DNA of 51,989 bases, taken from assembly GCA_036785375.1 (NCBI GenBank), contig JAWMAR010004386.1, positions 1 through 51,989 of the forward strand. Reading direction: 5' to 3'. The position numbers were made by a program. The DNA comes from Leucoraja ocellata (Eukaryota). This document shows, in pieces, positions 24,001 to 30,000 of the stretch. Numbering within the stretch: the stretch's first letter is position 1; each line of letters begins with the position of its first letter.

Positions 24001-27000
24001 CGGATGTAGCACAGGAGCGGGACACAGGGAGCTGGATGATTCACGCTTAACCCGGGATACATCGAGGTGGGGTGAATACACATAGACCGGGGCAGTCTAA
24101 GGCGGACAGCAGAGCGGTTGATGACTCTGAGAACAATGAATGGACCAATACACCGGGCGCCAACTTACTGGACTCAACGCGGAGGACGAGGTCTCGGGTG
24201 GACAAGCAGACCCTCTGCCCAGGGCGGTAGCGAGGGACAGGGGTCCGGTGATGATCCGCCCGCCGTCTATACCTGGAAACGGTGCGGAGCAGAACAGAAC
24301 GGGCCTCCCTCCAGGTCTGACGACCGCGGCGCACAAACCGCTGGGCAGAGGGAACGGAGACCTTCTCCTCTTGGTCTGGGAACAGAGGTGGCTGGTAACC
24401 TCGGGAGCAGTGGGATGGAGACAGACCGGTGGCAGAACCGGGCCCGGAATTGTGGACATGTTCAATCCACACCAACTTACTGGACCAGGAGGTAGGATTG
24501 GCGGACACCGGGCAATGTAGTGTGGTCTCTGGGTCCTGATGTCTCTCTCCGGCTGGCCATTAGATTGTGTATGGAACATACACATAGAAACATAGAAAAT
24601 AGGTACGGGGGTAGGTCATTCGGCCCTTCGAGCCTGCACCGCCATTCAATATGATCATGTTTGATCATCCAACTCAGTATCCTGTACCTGCCTTCTCTCC
24701 ATATCCCCTGATCCCTTTAGCCACAAGGGCCACATCTAACTTCCTCTTAAATATAGCCAATGAACTGGCCTCGGCTACCTTCTGTGGCAGAGAATTCCAC
24801 AGATTCACCACTCTCTGTGTAAAAAATGATTTTCTCATCTCGGTTCTGAAAAACTTCCCTCTTATCCTTAAACTGTGACCACTAGTTCTGGACTTCCCCA
24901 AAATCGGGAACAATCTTCCTGCATCTAGCCTGTCCAACCCCTTAAGAATGTTGTAAGTTTCTATAAGATCCCCCTCAATCTTCTAAATTCTAGTGAGTAC
25001 AAGCCGAGTCTATCCAGTCTTTCTTCATATGAAAGTCCTGCCAATCCAGAAGAGAGGCTGACGGAGGAGCCAACTAGGGAGCAGAAAGCTTTCCAGATAC
25101 AAGACCGAAGATAGGCACACAATGCTGGAGTAACTGATCCGTTCAAGCAGCGTCTGTGGAGAGAAGGAATGACGGTCGCTTCGGGTCGACACCGTCTGAA
25201 GAATTGTGGAATTGCGTATGGAATTGTGCGGAGCTGGTCCCGTCATCCGAAACACTAACACTGTCCAAAAACCCCGCGCGCGAACGGCCTGCCGGCCCGC
25301 AGCGTCTTGACGGCGTAGGCATCGTCTTGACGGCGTAGGCAGCGTCTTGACGGCGTACGCCTAGCACGTGGCGTTGCGCGATGACGTAACGCTGGACGCC
25401 GTGGGACGTCCAAATCCAGTCGGCCCGCCTCCTGCCCAGCTGATTGGTGAGTATGACGTCGGGACCAGCTCCAGACGGATCCGCGGTTGTAAGTGGGACC
25501 GGCCCCGCGAGGATGTCCCGGCACCTTCGCCACACCATCCCCCGGCGTGTCCACACTACCCCCCTCCCCATGGCCGTGATCCCTCAGCCCCCAATCGCCG
25601 TGACCCTCACTCTCCCAACGTCCATGACCCCCCACCCCCCAATCACAGAGACCTCCACCCCTCAATCCGCGCGAACATCCCCCCCACCCCAATCCCAGTG
25701 ACCCCCATCCTTCAATCCCCGTGAACTCGCCCCCAGCAGCACAAGCAGCCACGGACAAACAGCTGGAGAACACTGGATTTTATTGAACATTTATGTGGCG
25801 ACAGTGAAGCAGAACACGCCCCCCCAGCAAAGAATCACATTCCCTCATCACCCCCCAGCAAAGAATCACATTCCCTGATCCCCCCACCCCCCCAGCAAAG
25901 AATCACATTCCCTCATCACCCCCCAGAAAAGAATCACATTCTTCACGGGGAGAAGGTGAGATGGAGGGGAAGATGGAGGGGTAGGAGTGTGGGGCAGATT
26001 GAGTTGTGCTCGGTGTTTCCGCTGGGTCAGGCCACGGGGGTGGAGGTGCCCGGAGGATGATGCAGACACATGCGGCGGGCAGGAGGTCACGTTGACCCGG
26101 GGCAGAGCTGCGGTTTGAGGGAGGATGATTGGAGAATAATCCCCCCTCCCCCGGGGGCTGCCATGTGTTTGCGCTGCACGAGGGGTGGGGGAGCAGAGAC
26201 TCTCAGCCCGATGGATGTCCGGCCCGGAGCTGCCAGGCAGAGAACCAGTGGCCCAGAGCCGGCAAATGGGAGCAATGTCCACGGGCCCCTGACGGGCAGA
26301 CACGGACACGGTGGGCCGAAGGGCCTGATACTGTGTTGTCTGGACACCCCCCGTGTGCGCCTACCCCCACGTGGCAGAAGGGGGGCGGGCGGAGAGAGGT
26401 TGAGACGGGAGTCTGGGGAGGGAGCGGGGAGGAGACGGGAGACAGAGGAAACAACGTGACGTCTTGTATCAGAAGAGTCGGGGGTCGGGGGGAGGTTGAA
26501 GGTCGTAGTTCGGGGGCAGGTTGAGGGGCATGGGTCGGGGGTTGAGGAGAGGACGCCCCTCCAATGTCTCCCCCCCCCCACTCCTACCTTGGTTCTTCTT
26601 CCAGTAGAGGACTCCCCCCACGACAGCGGCCACCACCAGCACCAGGACAACGAGCACCAGGACAATGGTCATCACGGTGCTGCCCGACTTGCGGACTGTC
26701 CCAGATTCACAAACACAGGCGGATGAGAGACAGAGACCGGGTCACGCATACCCCTCTTCTCCCCCAATCATCCTTCCGCTAGTCTCACTCACCCCCCCCA
26801 TCCTTCTCACCCCCTCCTCTCCTTCCCGAGCTGCTTCCCTCCGCAACCACCTGCCCTGAGCGCTACCCCACTCCTCCTCACCAACTCTCTCACCCTCCGC
26901 CCATCTCATACCCCCCCCCTCCCTCCAATCTCCCGCTCTCCCCCTCCCTCACCCATCCTCTATTTCCTAACCCTCCCCTTCCCTCTCTCCGATCTCCCGC

Positions 27001-30000
27001 TGCCCCCCACCCCCCCTCCCGCCCCCACTCACCCAGGAAGACCTCGAGGGCTCGGACAGCCCCGGGTGCTCCACACGACAGGAGAGCGGGGCCGTGTCCC
27101 CGGGCTCCACGTGGGCCCAGCGGCGCTGCCGGAAGGTGCCGTCGTGGTTGGGCAGCGTCCCGTGGGAGCGGCTCTCATCCAGGACCAGGCCGTCCCGCAC
27201 CAGGTTCACCTCGATGGAGCGCGGGTAGAAGCCCGTGGTGAAACAACACACGCGGCTCCCATCCCCCGACAGGAAGATGCTCACCTCCGGCTGAACTGTG
27301 GGGAGAGGCTCAGTGAGGGGGAGACAGTGAGGGGGGTGGGGGGGGGGGGGGGCTGTGAGTGGGGGACAGTGAGGGAGGGGGGGGGGTGAGGGGGGGGCAG
27401 TGAGGGGGAGACAGTGATGGGGGGGAAGTGAGGGGTGACAGTGAATGAGGGACAGTGAGGGGGACAGTGGGGGGACAGGATGGCCCGATTAGAGCAAAGG
27501 GCAGGTTGGCAGGTTTGGGGAACCCTGGCCGATGAGCAATTATATTGAGGTTCTGGAAAAGAAAAAGATGGCACCCTACAGGTTTAGGTAGTCGAGATGA
27601 AATTAATCACTCGCCGAGAAGCGTGGGAGTAAATCTAAGTGGGAAATCCCGAGGGCATAAGGAAAGTATTAGATGGATCTGGCAGTCCAGGTAAAGGAAC
27701 ATTCCAAAAGATTCCACAGGTATATTGAGTGTAAAATGGTGCCCAACGTGTGAAAAGGTCCCTTTAAAGATCAGTGTGGCTATTTCTGTGTGGAGGCAAA
27801 TATATGTGAGATTGTAAATAAATATCTCATCAGTTTTTACTGTATAAAATCATGGAAGCTGAGGAATTAAGACAAATGGGCTGTGATGTATTGGGCCATA
27901 CACACATTTCCAAAGAGGATGGCTTGGTGGTCCTAAAGCACATTAGAGTAGCTCAAACCCCAGGGCCTGACCAGGCGGGAATATTTAAAAACCGGCAGTT
28001 GGAGGTGAGAGTCAACGTGAGGCTTGAACAGCGATTAAAAGGAGGGCAGGCTCAATCGGAGCAGCCATTTTGGGGTGCTGCTGTAGATCAAAGTGTGGTT
28101 TTGCTCAGTTCTCGGAGGTGGCCAAGCAGCACACAGGCTAGGGCAAGGATGGTCACTTCTCATTTCCATCAGAAAGATACAATAAGGTGGAGTAACTCAG
28201 CGGGCTCAGACAGCATCTCTGGAGAAAAGGTATAGGTCAAATTTCCGGTCGAGACCCTTCTCCAGACTGAGCGTCAGGAAAAAGGGAAACAAGATATAGA
28301 CACGGTGATATAGGGAAATATAAATCAAATGAATGAAATATATGCAAAAAGTAGCAACAATATTAGACAGGCCTTTGTTAGCTGAAGGGCCAAGTGAAAA
28401 TGAGTTGCAGACAATGAAACTCACCATCGCGACACTGAACCTAGTTCAACAACTAGGGTGGGAGAGGGACGGAGAGAGAGAGAGCGGTTGCAAGGGTTAC
28501 TTGAAGTTACGAAAATCAATATTCATACCGTTGGGTTGCAAACTGCCCAAGGAAAATAAGAAGTGCTGTTCCTCCAATTTGCGTTTGGCCTCACTCTGAC
28601 AATGGAAAACCCCAGGACAAGAAGCTACATGTGGAATGGGAAGGGGAATTAAATTGTTTGGCAACCGGAAGATCAGGTAGGACCAGGCCGACTGAGCGAA
28701 GGTGTACAGCGAAACGATCACTCATTTTATGTTTGATCTCACCGACGAATTAGAGTCGACACCATGAACAATGGATACAGTAGATGGTTGGAGGAGATGC
28801 AAGTGAACGTCTGCCGAACCTGAAGGGTCCATCAAGGTCCCAGGACAGTCGCAGGATGAGGCATTATGGACAGGTGTTACATCTCCTGCGGTTGCTGATG
28901 AAGGTACCTGGGGAGGAGGTGGTTTGGGTGGGAAGGGATAAGTTAATCGGAGGGAACGGTCTCTGCGGATGGTGGAAAGGAGTGGAGATGGGAAATTGTG
29001 ACTTGTGGTGGGATCCCGTTGGATTCATGTAAAGATCAGTTGATCAAAGTGCAGGATCAGCATGTTCCAGTACGGAGGAGCGACAAGGTTGGCAAAGTAT
29101 TGCAACTGTGGGTGTATACTTGGTCAGGAATCAAATTTGGAAAATACAAATATGGCAAGACAGCTTGAGCGAGAAAGAGGTCGTGCTGAGGTTGTTGAAA
29201 AACATTAAAGTCAGGGCCGGATTTATTATTAAGCTATTTCAAATGTGAACCCCTTCCCCACCACCCCCCCCCCCCCCCCCCCCCCCCCCACTCCCAGTCC
29301 CCCACCCCCACGACTAGAGGACCATGACTACCCGACAGTGACAGTGTGACACTTTTAGATCCTACTGTATGTTGTCATTAAATAGTTGGTTTTAAAATAC
29401 AAATTGGATTCACCGTGGAGCGGGCGACAACTTACGTGTATCGCCATTTGAAGTTCTGGAGTGGTGGGCCTGCTGCTTCAACATCTTGGAGCTGTGGTTT
29501 GCGGAGCTCCCAGCCTCAGGCTGCGCTGATTTAAACATTGTGAAACCCTGGGATCCCTTTGCCGAGAGCCGCCAGCGTGAATCTCCGCCCTGCTCAGCCT
29601 GTGGAATTTGGGTGGTGCGGGAGGGAAGGGAAGAATTGACCAGAGAATTGTGGAGGGAGCGGTCTTTGCAGAAAGCGGACAACGGGGAGGGAGGGGGGGA
29701 GGTGAGAGATCCGAAGATGTGGCGAGTGATGGGGTCACGTTGGAGGTGGCGAAAATGACAGAGGCCAATTTGTTGTACGTGACGGCTAGTGGGGTGAAAG
29801 GTGAGGACTAGGGGGACTCTGCCCTTGTGACGTGTGTGGGGGGGAGGGGACAGAGAGCAGTGTTACGGGGTATGGAAGAGACCCTGGCGAGAGCCTCATC
29901 TATAGAAGGGGAGTGGAACCCCCGTACCTTGAAGAAGGACGACATTTCCGATGCCCTGATGTGAAACACATCATCTTGGGAGCAGATGCGGCGCAGACGG

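What the first reader, a model, noticed from the sequence alone, without database searches (positions are those of the whole stretch)
25779..27295. MHC class I-like half-gene (alpha3-TM-tail) with no peptide-binding exons in the 24 kb upstream
Seen: clean alpha3 and TM exons with canonical splice sites, GC-rich introns and a polyA signal. Just upstream (~27480) the sequence switches to TE debris and then a complete GPCR gene; I find no leader, alpha1 or alpha2 exon. Known: class I genes are normally compact, and cartilaginous fish have several divergent non-classical lineages. Inference: a truncated duplicate, an alpha1/alpha2-less variant, a gene with a >24-kb intron holding a nested GPCR, or a misjoin at the G-runs.
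Basis: partly seen in the sequence, partly recalled or inferred. Interest (0 to 1): 0.65.

Follow-up and report, generated by a model that had tools for sequence, protein, structure and literature searches.

The report
Broken skate MHC class I fragment
This is the rear part (alpha3 and membrane-anchor exons) of a skate MHC class I gene, left without its peptide-binding exons and carrying a frameshift, so it is most likely an ordinary dead gene fragment.

Summary
The exons are real and lie on the minus strand. The alpha3 exon is 27295-27033. It matches Pfam C1-set, and its best solved relative is nurse-shark UAA, 6LUP. It is 91-98% identical to full-length skate class I proteins. The TM exon is 26695-26588. 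Both exons have AG/GT sites.

The window holds no leader, alpha1 or alpha2 on either strand. tblastn with 6 skate proteins and a profile of 32 cartilaginous-fish class I proteins against 2033 six-frame pieces hit only alpha3 and TM.

The exons are not clean. The alpha3 exon is 263 nt. It is one base short in a C-run near its 3' end compared with all 11 relatives that cover that part. The TM exon is therefore read out of frame and stops after 7 codons. The relatives' cytoplasmic exons are not found. An invariant Gln is Arg.

In a tree the alpha3 sits inside the skate class I clade (100/100), not in a divergent lineage.

Similar alpha3-TM-only gene models exist in Amblyraja radiata and Rhinoraja longicauda.

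Verdict: a 5'-truncated class I gene fragment, probably a pseudogene, and ordinary. A misassembly or a very long intron could not be excluded.

The parts
27033..27295 (-). alpha3 (C1-set Ig) exon of an MHC class I gene, 263 nt. Acceptor AG at 27297-27296, donor GTGAGT from 27032. One base short near its 3' end compared with relatives.
   Evidence: Pfam C1-set E 2.5e-9. PDB best hit 6lup_A, E 5.1e-17. 91-98% identity to skate class I over 82 aa. Exon length and phase. Cys17-Cys73 spacing of 56 residues read from the translation.
26696..27032 (-). Intron between the alpha3 and TM exons, 337 nt. It is retained, so this is not a processed retrocopy.
   Evidence: Sequence. Junction positions fixed by the relatives' ...FL|V(R/H)KSGS junction.
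26588..26695 (-). Connecting-peptide/transmembrane exon, 108 nt, phase 1 to phase 1. In its own frame it reads RKSGSTVMTIVLVLVVLVLVVAAVVGGVLYWKKNQ.
   Evidence: Profile hit E 8.6e-7 at HMM positions 283-319. tblastn with P0122: 33 of 41 identical, E 3e-16. Frames.
26038..26107 (-). Segment homologous to the last coding exon of A. radiata half-gene model P0125. A possible acceptor AG lies at 26109-26108. Spliced there, the window would read a different frame from P0125.
   Evidence: tblastn of P0125 aa 120-140 against 26100-26038: 20 of 21 identical, E 1.8e-9. Sequence context.
25779..25784 (-). Its frequency here is what chance gives.
   Evidence: it is the only AATAAA or ATTAAA on the minus strand in 24000-27300, but there are 40 AATAAA on that strand in the window.
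25820..25941 (.). 31-bp tandem repeat (3.7 copies) between the terminal segment and AATAAA.
27296..27474 (-). Remnant of the intron ahead of alpha3. The last 12 nt match the starts of A. radiata partial models (PLPT). A 14-bp minisatellite, G-rich on the + strand and holding long G runs, lies at 27311-27474.
   Evidence: TRF. P0123 and P0124 residues 1-4 align at 27308-27297.
24582..25049 (-). 3' end of a LINE, with five other copies in the window at 84-90% identity. It bounds the class I-derived stretch downstream.
   Evidence: Self-blastn.
27706..28232 (+). Degraded LINE-like stretch upstream of the fragment, on the opposite strand.
   Evidence: tblastn with an in-window LINE ORF piece, E 3.6e-4. 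No Pfam hit for ORF 27822-28232.
33210..34151 (-). GPR139-like rhodopsin-family GPCR ORF, 314 codons. The first Met is at codon 16 and no Met precedes TM1. It is a neighbour, not part of the class I piece.
   Evidence: Pfam 7tm_1 E 9.1e-17. PDB GPR139 E 4.2e-11. ORF inspection.

Best explanation
This is a 5'-truncated genomic copy (a 'class I gene fragment') of the ordinary skate MHC class I heavy-chain gene. It keeps the end of intron 3, the alpha3 exon, intron 4, the TM exon and part of the 3' end. It has lost the leader, alpha1, alpha2 and the usual cytoplasmic exons.

It arose at the DNA level, by partial duplication or rearrangement in a repeat-rich region. It did not arise by retroposition, because intron 4 is retained. 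It now decays as a pseudogene.

Any transcript spliced at the conserved sites would go out of frame at the end of alpha3 and stop 7 codons into the TM exon. It would also lack a signal peptide and a peptide-binding groove. No antigen-presenting product is expected.

Shown: the homology, the exon bounds, the absence of the other exons from the window, the frame break and the retained intron. Inferred: the mechanism of truncation and the lack of function.
For: (1) The alpha3 is 97.6% identical to P0001 and P0002 (P0002 is Leucoraja erinacea; P0001 carries no source name). It is 95.1% identical to P0003 (L. erinacea) and P0004 (A. radiata), and 91.5% to Rostroraja eglanteria P0005, each over 82 aa. 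All five are full-length chains with PF00129.
(2) In an NJ tree of 44 alpha3 domains the window falls in the skate clade in 100 of 100 bootstraps and in a batoid clade in 80 of 100.
(3) Only alpha3 and TM are found in the window. tblastn with 6 proteins gave every other hit at E >= 0.26. A profile HMM of 32 proteins against 2033 six-frame pieces gave nothing at HMM positions 1-191 better than E 2.3.
(4) The alpha3 exon is 263 nt and leaves 0 bases over. The TM exon needs 1 carried base, so in the imposed frame it stops after 7 codons. All 11 relatives that cover that part (P0001-P0005, P0122-P0124, P0126-P0128 among others shown) continue (L/I)EV(F/V)L in frame.
(5) The relatives' cytoplasmic exons (AGKSGYN...SERGEN...) are absent. 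A word-size-2 tblastn of 24000-26700 gave only chance-level hits. A scan of the whole window with 11 motifs gave 2 chance hits.
(6) Gln after DGT[FY] is invariant in 43 of 43 aligned relatives but is Arg in the window. Counting the window, 4 of 8 half copies deviate at columns invariant in 35 full-length cartilaginous-fish domains, against 1 of 35 full-length in leave-one-out (Fisher p = 0.0026).
(7) Class I fragments of the same shape recur in skates: 7 short C1-set-only models in A. radiata and R. longicauda and the scrambled L. erinacea model P0006.
(8) The surroundings are LINE copies, LTR-element debris and decayed GPCR copies.
Against: - The frameshift is a single base in a run of C. It could be an assembly error, and I have no reads.
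- A weaker GT four bases downstream of the GTGAGT donor would restore the TM frame (context).
- The alpha3 differs from its closest full-length relative at only 2 of 82 residues, so the copy is young and little decayed.
- Without DNA of paralogues I could not measure dN/dS or find the exact breakpoint of homology.
- A. radiata models P0122 and P0125 are not flagged partial. A transcribed half-gene is therefore not excluded.
- Exons further than 24.7 kb upstream cannot be seen in this window.
Confidence: 0.7

Rival explanations
1. Assembly artefact. A complete class I gene is cut by a misjoin or collapse in the G-rich minisatellite at 27311-27474, and the missing C is a homopolymer error.
For: Long G runs and a 14-bp array lie exactly where class I homology stops. 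The frame break is in a C-run. A second 1-nt difference from the P0125 model also lies in a C-run. PMC10751288 (passages read) says that MHC genes of the thorny skate assembly sit on unplaced scaffolds.
Against: The relatives' cytoplasmic exons are missing too, on the other side of the fragment, and a misjoin at 27.4 kb does not explain that. Other skates show half copies on several contigs. The window has no N.
Confidence: 0.12
2. An intact or recently intact gene whose intron 3 exceeds 24.7 kb. The intron would be filled by LINEs, retroelement debris and a nested GPCR, with leader, alpha1 and alpha2 beyond the window end.
For: The upstream stretch is largely transposon-derived, which is how introns grow. 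The splice sites of both exons are intact.
Against: The frameshift, the missing cytoplasmic exons and the change at an invariant residue. An intron of that size would hold a same-strand GPCR ORF and several same-strand LINEs with their own signals. PMC10751288 (passages) describes the elasmobranch class Ia region as compact.
Confidence: 0.08
3. A transcribed alpha1/alpha2-less class I variant. Skates would keep a small family of alpha3-TM genes that make a short membrane protein or a regulatory RNA.
For: Non-partial models with only alpha3-TM exist in A. radiata: P0122 (140 aa) and P0125 (142 aa). The terminal exon of P0125 is 20 of 21 identical to window 26100-26038.
Against: None of these models has a signal peptide: P0122 starts M-VQPEV and P0125 starts inside alpha3. 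The half copies carry extra changes at invariant columns. The window copy is out of frame twice relative to the P0125 model. High identity in a possible 3' UTR fits recent common descent just as well.
Confidence: 0.05
4. A non-MHC C1-set gene, a class II chain, or a divergent non-classical, CD1-like or W-type lineage.
For: C1-set plus TM is also the layout of class II chains. The motif FYPRSIEV resembles class II beta (recalled, not from a call).
Against: 91-98% identity to chains that carry PF00129. The best PDB hit is classical shark UAA at 65 bits, with CD1 chimeras at 58 bits or less. The skate class I clade has 100/100 support, separate from the Squalus Q8HWH7 / 'MR1-like' group. W-type and CD1 sequences were not put into the tree.
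Confidence: 0.01

Closest known systems
Full-length skate MHC class I heavy chains: L. erinacea P0002 and P0003, A. radiata P0004, R. eglanteria M4R434 (P0005), and unnamed P0001
   Same: alpha3 is 91-98% identical. The TM exon is of the P0003/P0004 type. The exon junction is the same (…FL|V-R/H-KSGS).
   Different: Those chains have a leader, alpha1, alpha2 (PF00129) and the tail AGKSGYN…SERGEN…. The window has none of these and is out of frame after SEP.
A. radiata alpha3-TM-only gene models P0125 ('IgG receptor FcRn large subunit p51-like', 142 aa) and P0122 (140 aa); R. longicauda P0126-P0128
   Same: The same half-gene content. P0125 shares Cys-Cys in RVCCFTT and a terminal exon that is 20 of 21 identical to 26100-26038.
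   Different: Those models are in frame. The window is one base short at the end of alpha3 and again at the start of the terminal segment. Orthology could not be tested because no skate DNA was available.
Human 'class I gene fragments' (HLA-N, -P, -S, -T, -U, -V, -W, -X, -Y, -Z)
   Same: Partial, non-functional copies of class I genes scattered by duplication. They are listed as such in the HLA nomenclature report PMC12936402 (passage read).
   Different: A different lineage and genome. Which exons each human fragment keeps was not checked here. No human sequence was fetched or compared.
Nurse shark classical class I Gici-UAA*01 (PDB 6LUP)
   Same: It is the best solved relative of the alpha3 domain, aligned over 71 residues including FYP(H/R)SIEVNL and PNHDG. 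Its identity comes from PMC8236899 (passages).
   Different: About half of the aligned residues are identical. It is a complete heavy chain.

Membership tests
MHC class I heavy-chain gene (functional member) | alpha1 and alpha2 peptide-binding domains (Pfam PF00129) | tested here: not met
   tblastn with 6 skate proteins and an HMM of 32 proteins against 2033 six-frame pieces gave no hit to HMM positions 1-191 better than E 2.3.
MHC class I heavy-chain gene (functional member) | Membrane-proximal C1-set alpha3 domain with the conserved Cys pair | tested here: met
   Pfam C1-set E 2.5e-9. Cys17 and Cys73 are 56 residues apart. 6LUP E 5.1e-17.
MHC class I heavy-chain gene (functional member) | Open frame from alpha3 into the TM exon through phase-1 junctions | tested here: not met
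   The exon is 263 nt and leaves 0 bases over. The TM exon needs 1 carried base. A stop follows after 7 codons.
MHC class I heavy-chain gene (functional member) | Leader exon and cytoplasmic exons | tested here: not met
   No leader hit. The tail exons of relatives were not found. Short exons can escape such searches.
Skate class I (classical-type) lineage, by descent | alpha3 groups with skate and batoid class I rather than other lineages | tested here: met
   100/100 for the skate clade and 80/100 for the batoid clade. Lineage names (UAA and others) for the shark sequences are partly recalled.
Class I gene fragment / unprocessed pseudogene | Homology limited to part of the gene, introns kept, disabling change | tested here: met
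   Only alpha3, TM and a terminal segment are present. Intron 4 (337 nt) is kept. There is a 1-nt frame break. The break could still be an assembly error.
Class I gene fragment / unprocessed pseudogene | No productive transcript | not testable with these tools
   No expression data were available.
Processed retrocopy | No introns, polyA tail, target-site duplications | tested here: not met
   The intron between alpha3 and TM is present.

The most novel reading that the evidence does not exclude
Skates (Rajidae) keep and transcribe a small family of class I 'half genes' holding only alpha3, TM and a new short tail. The family would be shared between Amblyraja and the window's species, and the window copy would be a member whose frame break is a sequencing error. 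Such a molecule could pair with beta2-microglobulin or engage CD8 without presenting anything.
Probability: 0.05. Interest if true: 0.6.

Novelty: new member of a known kind. Interest (0 to 1): 0.15.

Why it matters
It matters little on its own. Partial class I copies are a normal by-product of duplication in MHC gene families.

It is useful for annotation in two ways. The locus should be marked as a class I fragment or pseudogene, not as a gene. Several skate models named 'FcRn-like' or 'beta-2-microglobulin-like' are the same kind of alpha3-TM piece.

PMC10751288 (abstract and passages read) reports no class I genes outside the elasmobranch MHC. Where such fragments sit in a finished skate assembly would therefore show whether class I pieces have been scattered outside the MHC.

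Tried and rejected
- Cytoplasmic exons. I searched 24000-26700 with the relatives' tails (word size 2, E up to 1000) and the whole window with 11 short motifs. The only motif hits were SGYN at 48488-48477 and SERG at 26992-26981. The first lies in the retrovirus-like stretch and the second in intron 4, and I took both as chance. 'SNRSSAP' at 26118-26098 resembles the relatives' SSNSSAP (E about 1). It overlaps the P0125-like terminal segment, so it may be a remnant of the last exon. This is unproven.
- LINE 3' transduction as the origin of the fragment. The LINE-like piece upstream lies on the opposite strand. The LINE tail downstream is a separate 5'-truncated copy. The idea has no support.
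- Other genes that would place the window in the MHC (tap, psmb, zinc-finger genes). A C2H2 pattern scan gave one chance hit. Of the roughly 58 ORF pieces sent to Pfam, only the GPCR, LINE and LTR-element domains and C1-set matched. Not every ORF was scanned.
- An Rfam scan of the window gave 0 hits.
- The first bootstrap tree timed out and was redone with my own distance code.
- Literature on skate class I half genes. Searches found no paper describing them. Supplements were closed and may hold gene lists that I could not see.
- Not done: a search or fold of the joined exons. Exons were searched one by one, and the joined step was left out.
- Not done: any comparison with skate genomic DNA.
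- The window is not taken for human.
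Full report
WHAT IS THERE

The finding lies on the minus strand. Reading that strand, an exon runs from 27295 to 27033. It is preceded by ...ctccccacAG and followed by GTGAGT. A second exon runs from 26695 to 26588, preceded by ...gggacAG and followed by GTAGGA.

The first exon translates to an 87-residue Ig domain. Pfam calls it C1-set (E 2.5e-9). Its best solved relative is 6lup_A (E 5.1e-17). PMC8236899 (passages read) identifies 6LUP as the nurse-shark classical class I molecule Gici-UAA*01. 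CD1, MR1 and mammalian class I chains follow with lower scores.

The second exon encodes a hydrophobic span followed by YWKKNQ.

WHOSE GENE IT IS

A search for longer proteins with the alpha3 exon alone returned five full-length class I heavy chains of skates:
- P0002 and P0003, Leucoraja erinacea;
- P0004, Amblyraja radiata;
- P0005, Rostroraja eglanteria;
- P0001, unnamed.

All five carry PF00129 plus C1-set. Over 82 residues they are 91.5-97.6% identical to the window.

In a neighbour-joining tree of 44 alpha3 domains (82 aligned residues, 100 bootstraps), the window falls in three nested clades:
- the skate clade, 100 of 100;
- a batoid clade, 80 of 100;
- a clade that also holds the Triakis and Heterodontus class I sequences, 55 of 100.

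It is separate from the group that holds Squalus Q8HWH7 and the shark 'MR1-like' models. So this is a recent copy of the ordinary skate class I gene, not a divergent non-classical lineage. The window most likely comes from a rajid skate close to L. erinacea. It is not human. W-type and CD1 sequences were not in the tree.

WHAT IS MISSING

tblastn with the six proteins against the whole window gave only the alpha3 hit (E 1e-47 to 7e-51) and weak TM hits. Everything else was at E >= 0.26.

I then built a profile HMM from 32 full-length cartilaginous-fish class I proteins. I searched it with all filters off against 2033 six-frame pieces of at least 15 residues. It hit only alpha3 (E 5.4e-36, HMM 192-278) and TM (E 8.6e-7, HMM 283-319). 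The best hit to HMM positions 1-191 had E 2.3. The leader, alpha1 and alpha2 are therefore absent from all 51,989 bases on both strands.

The relatives' cytoplasmic tail (AGKSGYN...SERGEN...SS(A/D)(P/T)A) was not found either. That holds for a word-size-2 tblastn of 24000-26700 and for a motif scan of the whole window. The two motif hits there are chance.

THE EXONS ARE NOT CLEAN

In all 11 relatives that cover this part, alpha3 ends ...HPGLSEP-(L/I)EV(F/V)L. The next exon starts with a split Val codon followed by (R/H/C)(K/E)(S/L)....

In the window every alignment stops at SEP, at 27048. The residues LEVFLG lie in the neighbouring frame. The exon is 263 nt. After the two bases that complete the split first codon, no base is left over, yet the TM exon needs one carried base. 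The window is thus one base short in a run of C.

Spliced at the conserved sites, the TM exon is read as SASRAAP and then stops. A weaker GT four bases further on would restore the frame, but the strong GTGAGT lies ahead of it.

The Gln after DGT(F/Y) is present in 43 of 43 aligned relatives from skates to catfish. In the window it is Arg.

THE 3' END

Window 26100-26038 matches residues 120-140 of P0125, with 20 of 21 identical (E 1.8e-9). P0125 is an A. radiata model named 'IgG receptor FcRn large subunit p51-like'. It starts inside alpha3 and ends in a tail unlike that of normal class I chains.

The window has an AG at 26109-26108 where that exon would start. It is again one C shorter than the P0125 reading implies, so the frame differs.

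The AATAAA at 25784-25779 is real. The hexamer occurs 40 times on this strand of the window, so it carries no weight.

HALF COPIES ARE COMMON IN SKATES

A search for proteins of similar length found seven models that hold only C1-set:
- four in A. radiata: P0122 and P0125, not flagged partial, and P0123 and P0124, partial;
- three in Rhinoraja longicauda: P0126-P0128.

None has a signal peptide. L. erinacea P0006 is a scrambled model across two alpha3 pieces and a TM exon read out of frame.

Twelve columns are invariant in 35 full-length cartilaginous-fish alpha3 domains. Counting the window, 4 of 8 half copies carry a change at one of them. In a leave-one-out test, 1 of 35 full-length domains does (Fisher p = 0.0026). 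Without the window it is 3 of 7, p = 0.011. This points to relaxed constraint on the half copies.

SURROUNDINGS

The class I-derived stretch is about 2.2-2.4 kb long and is unique within the window.
- Downstream it is bounded by a LINE 3' end at 24582-25049, which has five other copies in the window.
- Upstream it is bounded by a G-rich 14-bp minisatellite at 27311-27474, then by degraded LINE-like sequence on the other strand.

Further upstream on the minus strand lie:
- a GPR139-like GPCR ORF that lacks a Met ahead of TM1;
- LINEs with esterase ORF1, endonuclease and RT;
- a retrovirus-like stretch, described only below.

No tap, psmb or zinc-finger gene was seen, but not every ORF was scanned.

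PMC10751288 (abstract and passages read) reports four relevant points for elasmobranchs:
- there is a single class Ia gene next to tap and psmb;
- extra Ia-like genes lie nearby among zinc-finger genes;
- no class I genes were found outside the MHC;
- the MHC genes of the thorny-skate assembly sit on unplaced scaffolds.

HOW IT MOST LIKELY CAME ABOUT AND WORKS

The intron between alpha3 and TM is kept, so the piece was copied as DNA rather than through a spliced RNA. The most likely history is a partial duplication or a rearrangement in a repeat-rich region. This left the 3' part of a class I gene without promoter, leader and groove exons, followed by small deletions. That history is inferred.

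As it stands the piece cannot make a class I chain. Partial class I copies are well known: the HLA nomenclature report lists ten human 'class I gene fragments' (PMC12936402, passage read).

WHAT STAYS OPEN

Three things could not be tested, because no reads, transcripts or skate genomic DNA were within reach:
- whether the single-base loss is real;
- whether the join at the G-rich array is real;
- whether exons lie beyond the window.

The joined-exon search or fold was left out. The exons were searched one by one. Supplements of the papers were closed and may list skate class I loci.

VIRUS-LIKE STRETCHES (DESCRIBED ONLY)

An LTR-retroelement pol-like stretch lies at about 1086-4237 (+). It has RT (E 2.2e-16) and RNase H (E 2.7e-26) Pfam hits. 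The two domains lie in different frames, so the pol reading frame is broken by at least one frameshift. I did not complete a count of breaks.

A retrovirus-like stretch lies at about 46.9-49.5 kb (-). It has only a weak match to the syncytin-1 envelope TM region (E 0.046). None of the ten pieces sent to Pfam gave a hit at E 0.01 or better. Its frames are interrupted many times, and I did not count the breaks.

VERDICT

This is a real but ordinary, 5'-truncated and apparently frameshifted fragment of the skate class I gene. Interest is low.

Noticed in passing
window 33210-34151 (-) and 14364-15084 (-): Two GPR139-like rhodopsin-family GPCR copies flank the class I piece. The first ORF has no Met ahead of TM1, and a short NL-repeat and stops lie just upstream. 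The second is spread over several frames. Both look decayed or need an upstream exon.
   Followed up: partly
window 4809-7678: A degenerate 10-bp satellite of about 290 units (58% matches) with very strong G-over-C skew.
   Followed up: no
window ~1086-4237 (+): LTR-retroelement pol-like stretch. RT and RNase H Pfam hits lie in different frames, so there is at least one frameshift. Described only; breaks not fully counted.
   Followed up: partly
window ~46900-49500 (-): Retrovirus-like stretch. There is a weak match to the syncytin-1 / envelope TM region (E 0.046). None of 10 pieces hit Pfam at E 0.01 or better. An integrase-like look is my reading only. Frames are interrupted many times. Described only.
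   Followed up: partly
window ~15400-19500 (-), ~39260-42530 (-), ~42450-45070 (+): Three long LINE copies with GDSL-esterase ORF1, APE endonuclease and RT domains. Shorter RT fragments lie at 21.7-22.9 kb, 35.1-35.6 kb and 45.9-46.3 kb.
   Followed up: partly
window 45629-45838: 79-bp tandem repeat, 2.6 copies, 92% matches.
   Followed up: no
proteins P0123-P0128 and P0006 (skate gene models): Public skate models named 'IgG receptor FcRn large subunit p51-like', 'beta-2-microglobulin-like' or 'uncharacterized' are class I alpha3-TM pieces. The names mislead.
   Followed up: partly
window 49700-51989: GC-rich stretch (up to 0.63) with long ORFs on both strands and no Pfam hit for the 3 pieces tried. 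Its nature is unknown.
   Followed up: no
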